Shown in pieces: positions 686 through 45,600 of a stretch of 64,000 bases of DNA. This DNA comes from Euglena gracilis (taxonomy: Eukaryota). Position numbers and translations under genes: made by a program. The stretch's first letter is position 1, and each line of letters opens with the position of its first letter. The DNA is taken from contig CP154954.1 of NCBI GenBank assembly GCA_039621445.1, forward strand, positions 25,928,954 through 25,992,953. The letters are read 5' to 3'. The notes below the pieces were generated by a model, which was given only the letters and a program-made list of their open reading frames with translations, did no database searches and was not told the origin of the DNA.

Positions 686-3600
686 GAAGGGAGCCGGGGC
701 GGCAGCCCCCTCCCCCGCCGCCGGCCGGCCGTCAGTGTGGGACGAGCGAGTGCCACAGGCGATGGCGGAAATTGTGCAGGACAGGCGCTTCCCGACGGTG
801 GAGGCGGTGCGAGTGTTGCTCGTGGAGCGGCACCAGTACGTCCCGCGCAGGGGTGGGTGGACCATGCCGTTGGTGAGTTTGTGTCCGACTCCCGGAGGGA
901 GGGTTGCTGAGTGTGGATTCGTTCTGGCTGAGTGGCGGGGGCCAAGAATCGGCCGCCCAGTGCCGAAGGTGCCAGAATTTTTTTTGGAAAATTTGGCCAA
1001 CCCCATTGATTTTCAGCTATTTTGATTTGAGGGGATTGACCCCCCAAGGAGGAAGGTGGGAAGCGACTGACTGGTTTTTCAAAAGCGGAACGTGACCCCC
1101 TCTCTCTTGGGGAAAGGAGGTCGCTAGGAGGTCCTATGGCATGGACTGGGTGTAATTTGGGGGTAGGAATTGGTGGCTAAAGTGATGTCATTGCTGACAC
1201 AGACCTCATGGACAAGGCCGATTGTGTGAAGTTTGTGGCGTTGTTTGATTATATTTGGTGTAGTTGTGGATGGAAATGCACATGAAACAGCATACACCAA
1301 GTTATGAAACCAATTTCATTTATGAATTTGCACGTTTTTGTTGGTGAAATGAACCAAAAGTCACATGTGTGGTACACACCTGGTGTGTTCGATCGTTAAC
1401 AGAAAGCAGGGTTTCCCACGAATTGGTGCCACAAATAATCACCAATAATCACGAACCAGCACGAATTTGGGGATTTTCCAAAATCACGAATAATCACGAA
1501 TTCCCACAAACGACCCGGAACAGTTTTTGCTCTCATTGCAGAATGTCTTCTTCTGAGAATGATGCCTCAATCAAGGGGCAATCCTCCTCAGAAGGGAAAC
1601 AAACGTGGAAACGGGGTTAAAATGCCGTCCCAGAAGCGTGCTGCTTAGGTGCCTTTTGTATCATTTTTGGCTTTTTTGTTAGTGGGTTTGGTAATGTTCC
1701 AAGCTTTTAAGCCGAAGTGTGTGGAAGACCTCAAGCTGCTGTCATGATGTTGTGCAATGACGCTGTTCTGTTCACATGTGATCCGACCCTTTCTGCCAAT
1801 GGACCACACACCGTGCAACACAACACTGCACAGTGCAACACCGCACGCTTTGGCAACAACGTCATTCATTGGCGTCACTTTTTGTCTGCAGCTTTGCTTC
1901 TTGTTCAAGATTATTGTCCAATCTAGATGGTCAAAGAGCTTCGTTTTTGATATTTCTGCTGTTGATACAGGTGATCACAAGTCAGACGAGGAGTGTACAT
2001 TGGTTTTCTGGGCAGGTTTAGGGAAAAACCGGGCGGTTTTTCGGTAGCACGAATAATCACGAATAATCACGAATAATCACGGATCAGAATTGAGGGTCCC
2101 TAGCGCGAATTTGTGGGAAACCCTGCAGAAAGGGGGGCTGGTTTGATGGTTCTCCCAGCCTCCTCTGCAACCGCCATATGTCAAGCCGTTGAAAGACCTG
2201 GAGCATTTCCTACAGACCACCAACCTGATCGTCGATTGCTACCTGGCAGCCAACAAGGCAGACCAGGGGGAGGGCAGAACCGCATGGAACCCACCCCTGT
2301 CCTGTTTGGAATCATTTCTTTTCGATTATTCTGAGTGCAATTGGTCATACCAAACCATGCACTTCCGGGACTGAACCGTCTTTTCCCCCCCTCAATGATG
2401 CGTACCTCGCAAACATGCCACCAGACCCAACACACCACATCCCCAAATCGCCAAAAATCGTGCAAATTCTCCGAAAATAAATCTTCATTTTGACGGAATC
2501 ACTGCCACCGCAGCCAACGTTGACAGGGGACGTTTCACCCAAAAGGTGGGGTCAAAGGTGACCCACCCCTCTGGCAGTTGTGACCCCCACAATCCCCGGC
2601 ATTGTGTCCCGTGGACCCAACCATGACCTCTGTGGCCGAGGCCAACCCCCGCCCTGCGAACAGCACGCTGTGGGAGCTGCACGAGTACATCTGCCAGCAG
2701 AGCGAGGAACTCTACGGGAAGGCGTTCGACAATTTCCGCAAGCTGGGACTTGAGCCGGGCCGGGGCCTCAGTGGGTCTAATCTCCAGGGTGCATCCTGGG
2801 CACGGCATCAACTCCCTGACAGCGTTTCCCCATCCCCAGTGCCTCTCGCCTGGGTGTGTGACTGTGAATGAGTGCCACCAGTGCAAGCACAACGGGCAGT
2901 GACTTCTTTTTTTTTGCACAAGAGGTTGGTATTGAGATGTTTTCTTTTTTTTTTGAACACCTGCTCTAGCTGGGTCCCAACCCGCATGCACGCAAACAAA
3001 CACACACACACACACACACACACACACACACACACACACACACACACACACACACACACACACACAACACATCATCCATACACACAACACACACAACACA
3101 CAACACACGCACACACTCAACACACACATAATAGCACACATAACACATAACACAACACAACACAACACGCACATCGCCCGGCACGGGCCGCCGCCGACCG
3201 CTGCATCGGCACCCCCGCGTCATGCAGTATTTCAAGCCGCCGCCAGACCTCACGCAGGTACCGGAGGTGCGGGCCCGGGAGCTCTACGAGGCGTGCCACG
3301 ACGTCTGCCGCAAAAGCAGAGGGCAGGAGATCACGACGGAGGTATGTGGAGAGCCCCCACACACAAACCCAAAAAAAAACACAAAAACCCATCCCAGGGA
3401 AAGAGAAGGCAAACCATCCCGAGGCGGGCATTTGGGCATCGAGGCATTTTGAGTGCCGTGTGGTGTTTTTACCATCATCCTGCGGTTCTGTCTTTGCCGA
3501 TGAACTCGCTGACGACCGTGTCGCGTGTGCAAAGCGCGCCAGAAATATGCACATTTTGTGCTAACACACCAATTCTTCCAAGGGAGGCCCCGCCCGGCCA

Positions 3601-42600: not shown

Positions 42601-45600
42601 TCCCGCTGCGGCAGGGGCCGTGGGCCGCGCTGACGGCGGGCCTGGTGGTGGTGGACACGGAGGTGGACCCCGCCACGCTGGAGGAGGTGGGCCAGCAGGT
42701 GGGCTGTCTCCTTTGGGGGGGTGGGTTGACTTGCTGCCGCTGTCCAGATGGATGGTGGGCTGGCCGTTTATTTGACGTTTGTGTGTGGGCGGTGGGTGGG
42801 TGGATGGGTGGGTGTGGGTGGGTGTTATGCAGGCATGCATTCTGGTGTGTCGCTATCTGGCGCCCTGTCTATCTTGATGGTGTACGCCCGCATCTCTGCA
42901 GGCAGGTTGGCAGGTATGTGCATGTGTGATTTTAGTAAGGTAACCCCCTACTGCTCACCCAAACAAGGTCCATATACTTGGGACCCGTCCCCCACATGGT
43001 CCAGGCCGCCTCCATTCGGGACCTTTCCCCCAGTTCCACGATTCTATTGCAGGGTTTTTCTGACATTTATGGGGTAGGAGTTGTATTTGGCATTCTGGAC
43101 AATGTTAGGTCAAGTTTAGGGGCAAGTTTGGCCACACCTCAAGCCACATTTTTGGCTGATTTTTTTGGCTTAATTTCGTCGAATATGCCGAACCCTAACC
43201 TGATTTCTAATTTGACCATAACTCAATATTATTAGAACATTAGTATGGGGCTGCTTTCTCACATTCATATATATGTGTTAATCTGGATTTCTGCACGTAC
43301 GCCTCGGCCCCAGGTGCCGCTACTGTGGCTCAGCCGGACGCCATATGCGCTGGTGCGGCTGTTCCTGGCCACCCTGCTGCACATCGTCCGGGATTGCTTT
43401 TGGGGGTTGGGAAGCTGTGTTCCTGTGGAGTCGTTTGGACTCTCTGAACCCCCGGTGGATGGGTGTTTTCAAAGAGATTGAAGGGGGTGTTTTTTGTGAT
43501 GCTGCTGGAAGCTTGTGATGTTTCCAACGCTATTTTCTTCTCTCCATTCCCCAATGGCCCCACTGATAAGCCACCAATGGTCTCACCACCCGAAATGACC
43601 CAAAGACACCAAATATCCCCAATGACAGAATCAAGGCAAAAATTTGTCGGGAACAGGGTTTCCAATTACTATGACCGCTTACACCCCCCAGGAGGGATTA
43701 TTGGATCCGATTTCGTTTGGTTGATTTGAAGGGGTGTGTTACAAGTGGCGGAGGGTTTTAGTCAATCCTTGGTGTGTATTGGGAAGGAGTCGACGAAAGA
43801 TTCTATTTTCCCCCGAGGGGGCGTTGCAAGGAATTTGGGGCAAATTATGCGGTTTTTTACAGTTTACACATATACAGTATGGCAGCTTTTTTACCCCAAG
43901 GTTTCCTGTAAGGTTTGTCTTTGTAACTCCTCATTTTTTTGCTCTGGGGGGGGTCTCTTCTCAATGCTGTCTTCTTCAAATTCCCAGGTCTGCCTCCCCA
44001 TCTGATGCCATAGGATTGTCCCCCAGCTGGAAATCGGCCTGAGCCGGGATTGAACCAGAGTATGTGCATGAAGTGTGTTTTTTTTTAAAAAAGCCCCCAA
44101 ATAAAAGGACTCACACAAGAAATTGGTCTCTGGCCGGAAATGCCTCTTGATTAATTTCACCAATCTCACCCAAACTTGGCTCATGGCACCATTTTCAACC
44201 ATTTTCGACCACGTTGAGCCATTTTGAGGCTGCTTTCGATTATTTCTCATGGAAAATGTCCTGGCTGAAATGGTCAAAAATCACCAAAAAAAAATGGCCA
44301 AGAGGGGCCCAAAACGCAGGAAATTTGTTCCCATCCAGCGGCCCACAGAACGGCTGGACAGGAATTCGTTGAACAACAAAATGGAGAATGATCAGCGACT
44401 GCAGGAAATGAGGCAGCAGTTTCAAATCAAACCATTCAATCTGCACCATATCCAGCATATTTTACCAGTTTTGGAGAAATTCCACTGAGCTGCAAAAATA
44501 TACGCGAAGGATGGGCATTTCCACATCCCTGTAAGTTCAGCCCACTCCAGGCCAAAAAAAACATCGTTTTGGGCAAAAAAAAGTTTTTTCCCGTTTTTTT
44601 TCGACGTTTGGAAATTGCATGGGTTTCGGGCGAAAAATATAGGGCCGGGGGATCGATAACCGCTCATTTTCGGCTCGAAAACACTTCTTCTGGGTCCGGG
44701 ATTTTGGGGGGGGGGGGCTGGCATCCATCCATGCAACCGGACAAATGGGGCGTGCAACCCAAAAGCCCCCCGCTTCACCCCACTCTCCCTCATGTTCCGC
44801 TCCACGGTGGATTACCGGATGGTGCATTACGGCTCCCTGCTGGAGTCGTGCCCAGAGGATTGCTTAGGCCAAACAAGACCCCAGGACCAACCGCTCAGTC
44901 AGAGGAGTCCGCTGCTTCGTGGGACCAAAGTGACGCACGCTCCAACATTTGTGTTTGCTGTTTATACTGGCGCACACTGTCACTGCAAACCCGAGAGGGT
45001 GGGAGTCAGTCAATTGCTTAAGCACTGGCCGACCCCCCCCCCCGGGGGGTGACTGACTTGTTTTTTCAGAGTGACTGACTGGTTTTTCGCCCAAATCCCC
45101 TTCCCCCCGCTGGGGGGGAAGGGGTCGACCAGGGGTGGGCAAAAGTGGCTTGAGTGACCCCGGCGCCAAAGGCGCCGGGGAAGTTTTTTTGGCCTAAAAT
45201 TGCCCAAAGTGACAGGAAAATGGCCGGTTTTCCTGAGTGGCCGACCCCCGGAGGGGGGGGGGGGGGGTAGTGACTGACTGGTTCCTGGAAAAAGTGATTG
45301 ACTGGTTTCTCGAAGAGTGGAGTGACCCCCCCTCCCCCCCCCGGGGGTCGGGGGGGTTGGTAAAAAATTGTGTGGTGGGAGTGAGGGGGTGTAATGGCAA
45401 TTATGACGAACTGGCCATACGGTTCAACTTGATGTTTTTTCCCCCATCAGATGGGGGGAAGGATCACCACACAGCACGCCGGGCCACAAGTGATATTAGC
45501 GCCGGCCACAAACAGACAAGAAACTTTGGTCCAAGAAGCCTTAGGGGGTGAGAAGAGGGCCGGGTGGACAGTCCGCTGGCCGCACGTGGTCCGCTGCGTG

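What the first reader, a model, noticed from the sequence alone, without database searches (positions are those of the whole stretch)
2261..45583. The 3+5 geometry of at least 21 non-conventional introns equals an 8-bp TSD, with an age gradient
Seen: frame-restoring introns without GT-AG at 2261-2661, 2753-3195, 7053-7538, 10229-10520, 12670-13472, 13978-17033, 21687-22139, 24185-24630, 28641-29445, 29537-30185, 31625-32940, 33023-33388, 33958-34120, 34749-34818, 34895-35010, 35098-35930, 36073-36511, 39629-41610, 41713-42542, 43386-44776 and 44850-45583. Most have a stem from +4 to -6. Comparing (last 5 exon nt + first 3 intron nt) with (last 5 intron nt + first 3 exon nt) gives 8/8 (34749), 6/8 (24185, 35098, 28641), 5/8 (10229, 36073) and background for the others. 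Inference: the whole class descends from 8-bp-TSD TIR elements; the TIR is kept as the splicing stem while the TSD decays. The unknown splicing machinery might be linked to this transposon family.
Basis: partly seen in the sequence, partly recalled or inferred. Interest (0 to 1): 0.88.

Follow-up and report, generated by a model that had tools for sequence, protein, structure and literature searches.

The report
Euglena nonconventional introns with insertion-like repeats
These are ordinary members of the known Euglena class of non-spliceosomal introns, and their junctions carry a weak but real direct-repeat signal that fits an 8-base insertion footprint, an origin idea that is already largely in print.

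Summary
The 21 intervals are euglenid nonconventional (NC) introns. All 7 boundaries that RNA could test fit: 5 full joints and 2 single ends. The helix starts sharply at +4/-6.

The identity is above chance. The total is 81 of 168 against 64.5 +/- 5.4 for mismatched pairs (P=0.002; P=0.013 without the 8/8 intron). Only the true diagonal and only a flank length of 8 stand out.

There are caveats. The whole excess lies in the five exon/3'-spacer positions; the other three sit at background. Identity does not correlate with stem quality or intron length, so the age gradient is unsupported. Three introns have spacer sums of 7 or 9. A GT-AG intron in the same gene also scores 6/8.

One new support: intron 24185-24630 is a copy of a dispersed repeat whose homology begins at +4.

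The N3/N5 code, the MITE origin, "TSD-like" repeats and an eight-nucleotide repeat in a newly gained intron are all published. Only the explicit "3+5 = TSD length" argument seems new.

The parts
2261..2661 (+). NC intron, 401 nt, GAC|CAGGGGG...CCCTG|CGAAC
   Evidence: Junction 8-mer identity 2/8. Stem run 5. Not RNA-tested.
2753..3195 (+). NC intron, 443 nt, CGG/CCG type; holds a CA microsatellite
   Evidence: Identity 2/8. Stem run 3, 8 of the first 12 positions Watson-Crick paired. Not RNA-tested.
7053..7538 (+). NC intron, 486 nt, CGG/CCG type
   Evidence: Identity 4/8. Not RNA-tested. Coding frame ambiguous in GC-rich sequence.
10229..10520 (+). NC intron, 292 nt, GTG|CAGGCTTTG...CAAAGCCTG|GCGGG
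   Evidence: Identity 5/8. 9-bp perfect stem. Not RNA-tested.
12670..13472 (+). NC intron, 803 nt
   Evidence: Identity 4/8. Stem run 11 with one G-U. Not RNA-tested.
13978..17033 (+). NC intron, 3056 nt; holds tandem repeats, including 3 x 205 nt at 15834-16449
   Evidence: Identity 3/8. Stem run 7. Repeats. Not RNA-tested.
21687..22139 (+). NC intron, 453 nt
   Evidence: Identity 3/8. Stem run 11. The upstream exon 21523-21686 has homologs.
24185..24630 (+). NC intron, 446 nt, that is a copy of a dispersed repeat. Perfect 16-bp terminal inverted repeat CAGGGGTTTTCTTAAG.
   Evidence: Identity 6/8. 73-78% similar to 35188-35650, with homology starting at the CAGGGG at +4. Shares a 24-nt module whose bin has depth 58170 against about 20 in DNA run X20. 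Not RNA-tested.
28641..29445 (+). NC intron, 805 nt; 3' spacer of 6 (3+6)
Evidence: In that register the stem is out of phase (run 1). CTG is followed by 6 nt. Not RNA-tested.
29537..30185 (+). NC intron, 649 nt
   Evidence: Identity 1/8. Not RNA-tested.
31625..32940 (+). NC intron, 1316 nt; mostly GT/GGGT microsatellite
   Evidence: Identity 2/8. The RNA contig loose end at 32940 carries the upstream exon sequence. Repeat.
33023..33388 (+). NC intron, 366 nt
   Evidence: RNA joint 33021>33388 in X1, X3 and X21; absent from DNA run X20. Identity 1/8.
33958..34120 (+). NC intron, 163 nt, GCC|CAGGGATGG...
   Evidence: RNA joint 33957>34121. Identity 3/8.
34749..34818 (+). NC intron, 70 nt, CAA/TTG type, flanked by the 9-nt direct repeat GCGCTGGGC
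   Evidence: RNA joint 34743>34814 with 9 ambiguous letters. Identity 8/8. DNA depth at baseline, so single copy. The minimum-energy fold contains the terminal stem.
34895..35010 (+). NC intron, 116 nt; spacer sum 7 (3+4 or 2+5)
   Evidence: RNA joint 34892>35009 with 3 ambiguous letters. Identity 5/8. CTG is followed by 4 nt.
35098..35930 (+). NC intron, 833 nt, CAC/GTG type with a 13-bp stem; holds a rearranged copy of the 24185-type repeat at about 35188-35650
   Evidence: RNA joint 35092>35926 in X3 and X21 with 6 ambiguous letters. Identity 6/8. Repeat.
36073..36511 (+). NC intron, 439 nt; holds a (TG)n repeat
   Evidence: The RNA loose end at 36072 carries the downstream exon sequence. 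Identity 5/8.
39629..41610 (+). NC intron, 1982 nt, TAG/CTG (U-G at +4/-6)
   Evidence: Identity 4/8. Stem run 8 with G-U pairs. Not RNA-tested.
41713..42542 (+). NC intron, 830 nt, CAC/GTG type
   Evidence: Identity 3/8. Not RNA-tested.
43386..44776 (+). NC intron, 1391 nt; 3' spacer of 4 in the best pairing
   Evidence: Identity 4/8. Stem out of phase in the 3+5 register (run 0). Not RNA-tested.
44850..45583 (+). NC intron, 734 nt
   Evidence: Identity 4/8. Not RNA-tested.
60838..61098 (-).
   Evidence: Fixed by frame and by the residue spacing of homologs P0003 and P0007. Identity 5/8. No RNA test.
61759..62133 (-).
   Evidence: Fixed by frame and homolog spacing: two residues lie between the aligned blocks. 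Identity 2/8. No RNA test.
35188..35650 (+). Nested, rearranged copy of the repeat that makes up intron 24185-24630. The left part is colinear and the right part is inverted.
   Evidence: blastn and MAFFT alignments. The placement of the inverted right terminus at about 35428-35447 is my own reading; MAFFT aligned it differently.

Best explanation
These are euglenid nonconventional introns, a known class. SHOWN IN PRINT: a non-spliceosomal machinery recognises a terminal helix that starts with C-D-G at +4 paired to C-H-G ending at -6. It cuts 3 nt upstream and 5 (sometimes 6) nt downstream of that helix, before a purine. SHOWN HERE: the geometry holds, and RNA confirms removal at all 7 boundaries that could be tested. 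INFERRED: the 8 nt between the two cut sites and the helix edges are, at least in a subset of introns, what is left of an 8-bp duplication made when a DNA element with inverted-repeat ends inserted into an exon. Removing the element plus 3+5 nt then removes exactly one copy of the duplication and restores the reading frame, so the insertion is harmless from birth. After that the helix is kept by selection for splicing, while the duplicate copy in the spacers is free to decay. SPECULATION: whether every intron of the class arose this way, and which transposon superfamily was involved, is not shown.
For: Class membership: RNA joints, a sharp helix start at +4/-6, a purine at the first exon base in 20/21 and at intron +1 in 21/21, and the published code (PMC12501133 abstract and sections 5, 8, 10).

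Footprint: identity is 81 against 64.5 +/- 5.4 (P=0.002) and still P=0.013 without the best case. With the two added minus-strand introns it is 88 against 70.4 (P=0.002, n=23). Only the true diagonal and only T=8 stand out. Control 8-mers just outside the window are at null: 45 against 45.2 and 51 against 53.5. The per-position excess starts at -5. 64 other CNG-ended inverted repeats of 10 bp or more in the window show background identity (mean 2.3/8) on all seven tested diagonals.

Element nature: intron 24185-24630 is a diverged copy of a dispersed repeat, and the homology starts at +4, not at +1.

Independent published points: a strain-specific, newly gained NC intron has eight-nucleotide direct repeats (PMC4770533 passage). 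Nonslidable natural and fully synthetic NC introns splice at a foreign site, which argues the repeat is not a splicing requirement; the cassette sequences themselves were not visible to me.
Against: The excess is carried by few introns: 7 of 21 score 5/8 or more, where 2.6 are expected from the mismatched-pair rates. It lies wholly in the five positions exon -5..-1 versus intron -5..-1. The three positions intron +1..+3 versus exon +1..+3 are at null (28 against 27.8), and the middle one is below null (4/21 against 0.28). A is rare at intron +2 (2/21) but more common at exon +2 (7/21), which a simple duplicate does not predict.

Spacer sums of 7 (34895, which is RNA-verified, and 43386) and 9 (28641 and 61759-62133) exist. 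Identity shows no relation to stem quality or length. The 8/8 intron is single-copy at 95% identity or more in the DNA run. Only 1 of 21 introns has a recognisable paralogous copy in the window. A GT-AG intron of the same gene scores 6/8 from consensus alone.
Confidence: 0.55

Rival explanations
1. The junction repeats come from repair of staggered double-strand breaks that captured filler DNA, not from transposase action. This is the reading favoured by Milanowski et al. 2016. Only captures whose repeat length happens to equal the 3+5 ruler, and whose ends can pair, survive in exons.
For: This explanation was proposed for the 8-nt repeat of the newly gained gapC intron (PMC4770533 passage). 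The 8/8 intron 34749-34818 is single-copy in the DNA run and resembles no other intron in the window. 20 of 21 introns show no family relationship within the window.
Against: Random filler would rarely bring ends that pair from exactly the right positions with a CAG/CTG clamp. Terminal consensus is C 39/42, A 30/42 and G 35/42, then G/C, which looks like a shared terminus. Intron 24185 is a dispersed-repeat copy with a perfect 16-bp inverted repeat.
Confidence: 0.15
2. The similarity is not historical. Both cut sites are read by the same enzyme in the same sequence context (NNNNY|R), or local GC-rich composition and the reader's choice of boundaries inflate the identity.
For: Both junctions share a pyrimidine|purine consensus (PMC4770533 section 8). 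The excess sits in the 5 nt upstream of each cut. The null identity is already 3.07/8. GT-AG introns of the same gene score 5, 1 and 6 of 8. The subset of 7 RNA-verified introns alone is not significant (30 against 25.4, P=0.09), nor is the strict-register subset of 14 (45 against 40.4, P=0.19).
Against: The mismatched-pair null already removes any shared consensus, and shifted diagonals remove local composition, yet d=0 stays alone at 81 against 46-65. Nonslidable and synthetic introns splice normally at a foreign site. A 9-nt exact repeat is not a consensus effect.
Confidence: 0.15
3. The duplication is real but is 5 bp, not 8. The element would run from intron +1 to the end of the 3' arm, and the last 5 intron bases would be the second copy.
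For: All the measurable excess is in exon -5..-1 versus intron -5..-1 (z about 3.7). Intron +1 is G in 18/21, as if it were part of a fixed terminus.
Against: The homology of the 24185 repeat copy begins at +4, not +1. The two clearest young cases have 8 or more identical bases: 34749 here, and the published gapC intron, whose register I could not see. By my arithmetic from the null rates (0.62 x 0.28 x 0.43), a 5-bp repeat would extend by 3 more bases by chance only about 0.075 of the time. Such an element would have asymmetric ends.
Confidence: 0.08

Closest known systems
Euglenid nonconventional introns (code 5'-N3-CDG...CH'G-N5-6|R; Nomura et al. 2025, PMC12501133; Milanowski et al. 2014 and 2016)
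   Same: No GT-AG borders. Helix from +4 to -6 starting with CAG/CTG or CGG/CCG. Spacers of 3 and 5(-6) nt. Purine at intron +1 and at exon +1. Removal from mRNA. Frequent short direct repeats at the junctions.
   Different: Nothing essential differs; these are new instances. Two or three have a 3' spacer of 4, which the knock-in work found poorly tolerated (about 20% of wild-type transcript). Some use CAA/TTG, CAC/GTG or TAG/CTG at the clamp.
Introner elements and MITE-derived introns (Micromonas and Aureococcus as summarised in PMC11282704; Amoebophrya introners, PMC7789003)
   Same: Inverted-repeat ends plus a short direct repeat spanning the exon/intron borders. Excision removes the element plus one repeat copy, so an exonic insertion is tolerated.
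   Different: In Micromonas the spliceosome removes them, using a splice site co-opted from a 3-nt duplication. In Amoebophrya the repeats are 3-5 nt and variable. Here the removal is by a helix-measuring, apparently non-spliceosomal system, and the implied duplication is 8 nt. Multi-copy families are obvious in those genomes but were seen for only 1 of 21 introns here.
DNA transposons with 8-bp target-site duplications: Merlin (reported in E. gracilis, PMC8101967) and hAT (recalled, not tested)
   Same: An 8-bp duplication flanking terminal inverted repeats. Two Merlin families with 8-bp duplications exist in E. gracilis. From recall, hAT ends commonly begin CAG/TAG (YARNG), as these helices do.
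   Different: Merlin inverted repeats end in 5'-GG, not CAG. The recalled hAT target preference (T at position 2, A at position 7) is absent: 2/21 each by my count from the 8-mers. No transposase was found or sought systematically. No print source links hAT to Euglena.
Endonuclease-plus-ligase splicing of structured RNAs (tRNA bulge-helix-bulge introns, Ire1 targets)
   Same: Cut sites are defined by distance from a helix rather than by sequence. The intron is released as a full-length circle (as stated in the review PMC11282704; the primary paper was not read).
   Different: No bulge-helix-bulge can be drawn. There is no pairing outward of +4/-6, and the intron 5' end does not pair with the downstream exon. 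The enzymes are unknown.

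Membership tests
Euglenid nonconventional introns | Borders are not GT/GC-AG | tested here: met
   21/21. Three start with GT, but none ends with AG.
Euglenid nonconventional introns | C-D-G at +4..+6 paired with C-H-G at -8..-6 | tested here: met
   Paired 19/21, 19/21 and 21/21 at the three positions. 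Strict CNG/CNG letters in the 3+5 register in 14/21. Terminal consensus C 39/42, A 30/42, G 35/42.
Euglenid nonconventional introns | Spacers of 3 nt (5') and 5-6 nt (3') | tested here: met
   By my reading of the junction strings: 18/21 are 3+5, 1 is 3+6 and 2 are 3+4. The two added minus-strand introns are 3+5 and 3+6.
Euglenid nonconventional introns | Purine at the first base of the downstream exon | tested here: met
   20/21.
Euglenid nonconventional introns | Removed from mature RNA | tested here: met
   5 of 5 joints and 2 of 2 single ends within the stretch laid, and absent from the DNA run. 14 introns were not tested.
Euglenid nonconventional introns | Released as circular RNA; spliceosome-independent | not testable with these tools
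   Known only from the literature (review passage).
MITE / TIR DNA transposon with 8-bp target-site duplication | Terminal inverted repeats | tested here: met
   Helices extend 12 or more positions above null. Most are short or imperfect, with a median contiguous run of 6. They are also selected for splicing, so this feature is not specific.
MITE / TIR DNA transposon with 8-bp target-site duplication | Direct repeat of fixed length abutting both inverted-repeat ends | tested here: inconclusive
   In aggregate, T=8 is the only clearly high flank length (z=3.06). It is perfect in 1/21 and 6/8 in 3/21. Positions 6-8 of the 8 show no excess.
MITE / TIR DNA transposon with 8-bp target-site duplication | Multiple dispersed copies forming a family | tested here: inconclusive
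   Only intron 24185 has a second (rearranged) copy in the window and carries a module with about 2900-fold excess DNA depth. 20 of 21 have no recognisable copy in 64 kb. The 8/8 intron is single-copy in run X20. No whole genome was available.
MITE / TIR DNA transposon with 8-bp target-site duplication | Presence/absence polymorphism or empty sites | tested here: inconclusive
   DNA run X20 shows no intron-less allele for the 5 introns laid. That is one run only.
MITE / TIR DNA transposon with 8-bp target-site duplication | Cognate autonomous element with matching ends | not tested
   The Merlin families of E. gracilis have 8-bp duplications but GG termini. hAT is only a recalled lead.
hAT superfamily (recalled definition) | Target preference nTnnnnAn in the 8-bp duplication | tested here: not met
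   T at position 2 in 2/21 and A at position 7 in 2/21, by my count from the left 8-mers printed. The consensus itself is recalled, not taken from a call.

The most novel reading that the evidence does not exclude
The 3+5 ruler of the unknown euglenid splicing machinery is matched to the 8-bp target-site duplication of one lineage of inverted-repeat transposons with CAG(G) ends. Those ends look hAT-like rather than like the GG-ended Merlins known in E. gracilis. Every exonic insertion would then be born as a precisely excisable intron. Ruler and element would have co-evolved, and the machinery might even derive from the element. That could explain why more than 70% of Euglena introns are of this type.
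Probability: 0.3. Interest if true: 0.75.

Novelty: new member of a known kind. Interest (0 to 1): 0.42.

Why it matters
How euglenid nonconventional introns arise and how they are removed are both open questions. If the spacer ruler equals a transposon's duplication length, the origin question becomes directly testable with existing genome and transcriptome data. The tests are the step at 8 nt in young introns, the flanks of non-genic copies, and a search for a transposase whose ends match. It would also constrain what the unknown enzyme must do. As it stands, this window adds only a small, consistent data point to a published hypothesis.

Tried and rejected

I then laid 32880-36190, so only 7 of 21 introns have RNA evidence. 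No listed holder is on record as RNA. X1 and X3 are guessed to be RNA.

3. Structure-only search for further elements. 64 CNG-ended perfect inverted repeats of 10 bp or more gave only background flank identity on all seven tested diagonals. Looser scans gave tens of thousands of candidates and were useless. My 'outermost pair' filter wrongly dropped 24185 and 35098, because +3/-5 happen to be complementary there.

4. Model 'whole intron = element, duplication in the exons' for T = 2, 3, 4, 5, 6, 8 and 9: no T was significant.

5. Extension of the helix through the spacers, which would give an RNase III-like 2-nt stagger: no pairing above null at +3/-5, +2/-4 or +1/-3. I dropped this idea as unsupported.

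6. Global folding. The minimum-energy fold of the 70-nt intron contains the terminal stem but has z=0.09. The fold of the 116-nt intron does not pair its ends (z=-0.43). There is no thermodynamic signal in this GC-rich sequence.

7. More copies of the 24185-type repeat. An exact 24-mer scan of metagenome contigs gave 0 hits. A degenerate pattern gave 16 loci that match only the pattern itself. I judged these to be chance hits.

8. Target-site duplication of the nested repeat copy: the copy is rearranged, so no duplication could be read.

9. Host genes. Pfam on 10 exon ORFs gave nothing. Protein searches with exon 35928-36071 and ORF 56143-56874 gave nothing. Exon 21523-21687 gave 6 weak hits, of which one 1501-aa protein maps to two exons.

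10. Earlier findings of this scan: none.

11. Literature. Searches, and a term look-up in the review, found no text that equates the 3+5 spacers with a duplication length or names an 8-bp superfamily for these introns. Figures and supplements were not visible. Fig. 3D of PMC11282704, Fig. 1B and Fig. S3 of PMC12501133 and Table S3 of PMC4770533 may already show it.

Full report
WHAT THE WINDOW IS

The sequence has 48-68% G+C and many GT/CA and GGGT microsatellites. Its genes are interrupted by two kinds of intron. I infer that it is nuclear DNA of a euglenid, probably a Euglena species. The basis is the intron class described below and the GTGTG-type conventional donor at 20871 (the consensus is described in PMC11170887, passages). 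No tool named the organism.

CHECK OF THE INTRONS

Every claimed intron within that stretch is supported.

- Contigs of runs X1 and X3 (guessed to be RNA) and raw reads of RNA run X21 skip 33022-33387(+1), 33958-34120(+1), 34744-34813(+9), 34893-35008(+3) and 35093-35925(+6). The number in brackets is the number of positions by which the cut can slide.
- Loose ends at 32940 and 36072 carry the neighbouring exon sequences expected for introns 31625-32940 and 36073-36511.
- DNA run X20 shows none of these joints.
- X21 supports each joint with only 1-2 reads, and the 35092>35926 joint is absent from X1.
- Two GT-AG introns (33499-33886 and 34214-34609) lie between the nonconventional ones.

So 7 of 7 testable boundaries hold. 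The other 14 introns rest on frame restoration and geometry alone.

CHECK OF THE GEOMETRY

Take +4/-6 as helix position 0. Pairing is 19, 19 and 21 of 21 at the first three positions. It is 12-19 of 21 over the next nine, against 8-10 expected from mismatched intron pairs. Outward of +4/-6 the pairing is at or below expectation: 9, 4 and 6 of 21 at +3/-5, +2/-4 and +1/-3. The helix edge is therefore real and sharp.

The ends read C (39/42 arms), A (30/42), G (35/42), followed by G or C. Intron +1 is a purine in 21/21 and exon +1 in 20/21.

Exceptions are 28641, which has six bases after CTG, and 34895 and 43386, which have four. For 34895 the RNA joint confirms a spacer sum of 7. Global folding energies are not unusual (z=0.09 and -0.43), as expected in such GC-rich sequence.

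CHECK OF THE 8-MER IDENTITY

- The sum is 81 of 168. Pairing each 5' junction with the 3' junction of another intron gives 64.5 +/- 5.4 (P=0.0019). Leaving out the 8/8 intron gives 73 against 60.5 (P=0.013).
- This null is high (3.07 of 8) because both junctions share a Y|R, GC-rich consensus.
- Raw scores of 5-6 are therefore not remarkable in themselves. Three GT-AG introns of the same genes score 5, 1 and 6.
- Shifting the 3' window by -10 to +10 bases gives 46-65, so the true diagonal stands alone.
- I compared T bases upstream of the helix with T bases downstream for T = 2-13. Only T=8 gives a clear excess (z=3.06). T=12 reaches z=1.8 and T=5 reaches z=1.4.
- Eight-base windows just outside the proposed window are at null.
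- 64 other perfect CNG-ended inverted repeats in the window have background flank identity.
- I found two further nonconventional introns on the minus strand from homolog spacing and frame: 60838-61098 and 61759-62133. They score 5/8 and 2/8. With them the test stays at P=0.002 (n=23).

WHERE THE SIGNAL SITS, AND WHAT FAILS

The excess is entirely in exon -5..-1 versus the last five intron bases (53 against 36.7, P=1.5e-4). Intron +1..+3 versus exon +1..+3 is at null (28 against 27.8), and the middle position is below null. At that position A is rare in the intron copy (2/21) and more common in the exon copy (7/21). Published logos also note A at exon +2 (PMC4770533 section 8). A plain decaying duplicate does not predict this asymmetry.

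Either the 5' spacer is reshaped after insertion, or the duplication is shorter in part of the class. Against a 5-bp reading:

- The clearest case here has 8-9 identical bases.
- The published newly gained intron has eight, although I could not see its register.
- The dispersed-repeat homology of intron 24185 starts at +4, not at +1.

The 'age gradient' is not supported. Identity does not correlate with stem run (rho 0.17), with Watson-Crick pairs in the first 12 positions (0.03) or with length (-0.11). The subset of 7 RNA-verified introns (P=0.09) and the strict-register subset of 14 (P=0.19) are not significant on their own.

A NEW PIECE OF EVIDENCE

Intron 24185-24630 has a perfect 16-bp inverted repeat and scores 6/8. 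It is 73-78% similar over most of its length to a segment inside intron 35098-35930.

- The left parts are colinear, and the similarity begins at the CAGGGG that is position +4 of intron 24185. The bases before it are unrelated.
- The right part of the second copy is inverted. My placement of its terminal repeat at about 35428-35447 is by eye, and MAFFT aligned it differently.
- Both copies carry a 24-base module. The depth bin that contains it (35211-35321) reads 58170 in DNA run X20, against about 20 for flanking single-copy sequence.

This intron therefore looks like a copy of a dispersed inverted-repeat element, with the three 5' spacer bases lying outside the element, as the duplication model requires. 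Because the second copy is rearranged, its own flanking duplication could not be read. Scans of metagenome contigs gave no further copies.

By contrast, the 8/8 intron 34749-34818 is single-copy in X20 and has no relative in the window. That fits a lone capture event as well as it fits a low-copy element.

MECHANISM

Established in print:

- The helix with its CAG/CTG clamp, the 3-nt and 5-6-nt spacers and the exon purine are necessary and sufficient for splicing. Fully synthetic 50-bp introns splice at a foreign site (PMC12501133 abstract and sections 5, 6, 8, 10, 12).
- The excised intron is a full-length circle (review PMC11282704, passage; the primary paper was not read).

Because the introns used in those experiments were nonslidable, the junction repeat is probably not needed for splicing. 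I could not see the cassette sequences. Its excess here is then best read as a historical footprint.

The logic that links the two is simple. If an element whose ends form the helix inserts with a duplication of T bases, the host gene stays intact only if the machinery removes the element plus T bases. The ruler removes 3+5 = 8. This also means that exonic survivors are filtered for T=8 (or 8 +/- 3), so exonic introns alone cannot tell a transposase's fixed duplication from filtered double-strand-break captures. Non-genic copies are needed for that.

COMPARISON WITH WHAT IS KNOWN

The class, its code, the MITE-origin hypothesis and several related points are all published:

- The MITE-origin hypothesis: PMC3935182 and PMC12501133 discussion.
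- The idea that CAG(G)/(C)CTG may be a fingerprint of the source sequence: PMC4770533 section 8.
- 'TIR' and 'TSD-like' labels for the helix and the junction repeats: PMC11282704.
- An eight-nucleotide repeat in a strain-specific new intron, which its authors read as break repair: PMC4770533.
- Two Merlin families with 8-bp duplications exist in E. gracilis, but Merlin ends are GG: PMC8101967.
- Amoebophrya and Micromonas introners are the closest analogues elsewhere.

In the texts I could search I did not find the explicit statement that the spacer sum equals the duplication length, or a named 8-bp superfamily for these introns. Figures and supplements were not visible and may contain it. The resemblance of the CAG(G) ends to hAT termini is my recollection. 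The recalled hAT target preference is not seen here (2/21 at each of the two positions, counted).

VERDICT

It is supported for a subset of the introns, unproven for the class, and wrong on the age gradient as far as these 21 introns can show.

Noticed in passing
window 35211-35321 (also 24560-24583): A short module (24-mer exact at 24560 and 35221) lies in a bin with DNA depth 58170 against about 20 baseline in run X20. That is on the order of thousands of genomic copies. Many DNA contigs end at 35213-35221.
   Followed up: partly
window 33637-33667: A 31-base piece inside the GT-AG intron 33499-33886 is matched by hundreds of RNA reads (372 and 344 loose ends in X21; contig depth 1111 in X1). 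The flanks of those reads differ from the window. A highly expressed transcript from elsewhere shares this short stretch.
   Followed up: no
window 59435-62872, minus strand: A three-exon gene (62719-62138, 61756-61103, 60838-59612) has ten unnamed homologs without Pfam domains (34-57% identity, plus one at 99%). Its two introns are both nonconventional.
   Followed up: yes
window 20760-21686, plus strand: Two exons are joined by a conventional GT-AG intron, 20871-21522 (GTGTGAG...CTGCAG). The junction encodes GIGFKSCFL|VTD, which from recall resembles the ATPase motif of sacsin or NO VEIN-like proteins. Only one 1501-aa weak homolog maps to both exons.
   Followed up: partly
window 31719-32874, 36193-36422, 39198-39413, 46687-46972, 2980-3100: Long GT/CA and GGGT microsatellites occur. 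The three I placed (31719-32874, 36193-36422, 2980-3100) lie inside nonconventional introns. One fills about 1.1 kb of intron 31625-32940.
   Followed up: no
window 33998-34013, 34925-34940, 35547-35565: Runs of 13-19 G lie inside three introns. They produce very high apparent DNA depth and many chimeric joints in the DNA run, and they should not be mistaken for repeat families.
   Followed up: yes
window 8118-8363 and 25671-26106; 4313-4390 and 6305-6382; 40387-40483 and 41320-41416: Three pairs of dispersed direct repeats (73-92% identity) lie outside the intron termini. The third pair is within intron 39629-41610 and has a related inverted piece at 45464-45534 in intron 44850-45583.
   Followed up: no
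window 15834-16449: Three tandem copies of a 205-nt unit (83-91% identity to the first copy) lie inside the 3-kb intron 13978-17033.
   Followed up: no
window 33040-33075: The DNA run differs from the window by five small deletions (7, 2, 4, 2 and 1 nt) and several substitutions just inside intron 33023-33388. Exons, spacers and the terminal helix are unchanged. This could be allelic or strain variation concentrated in intron interiors.
   Followed up: no
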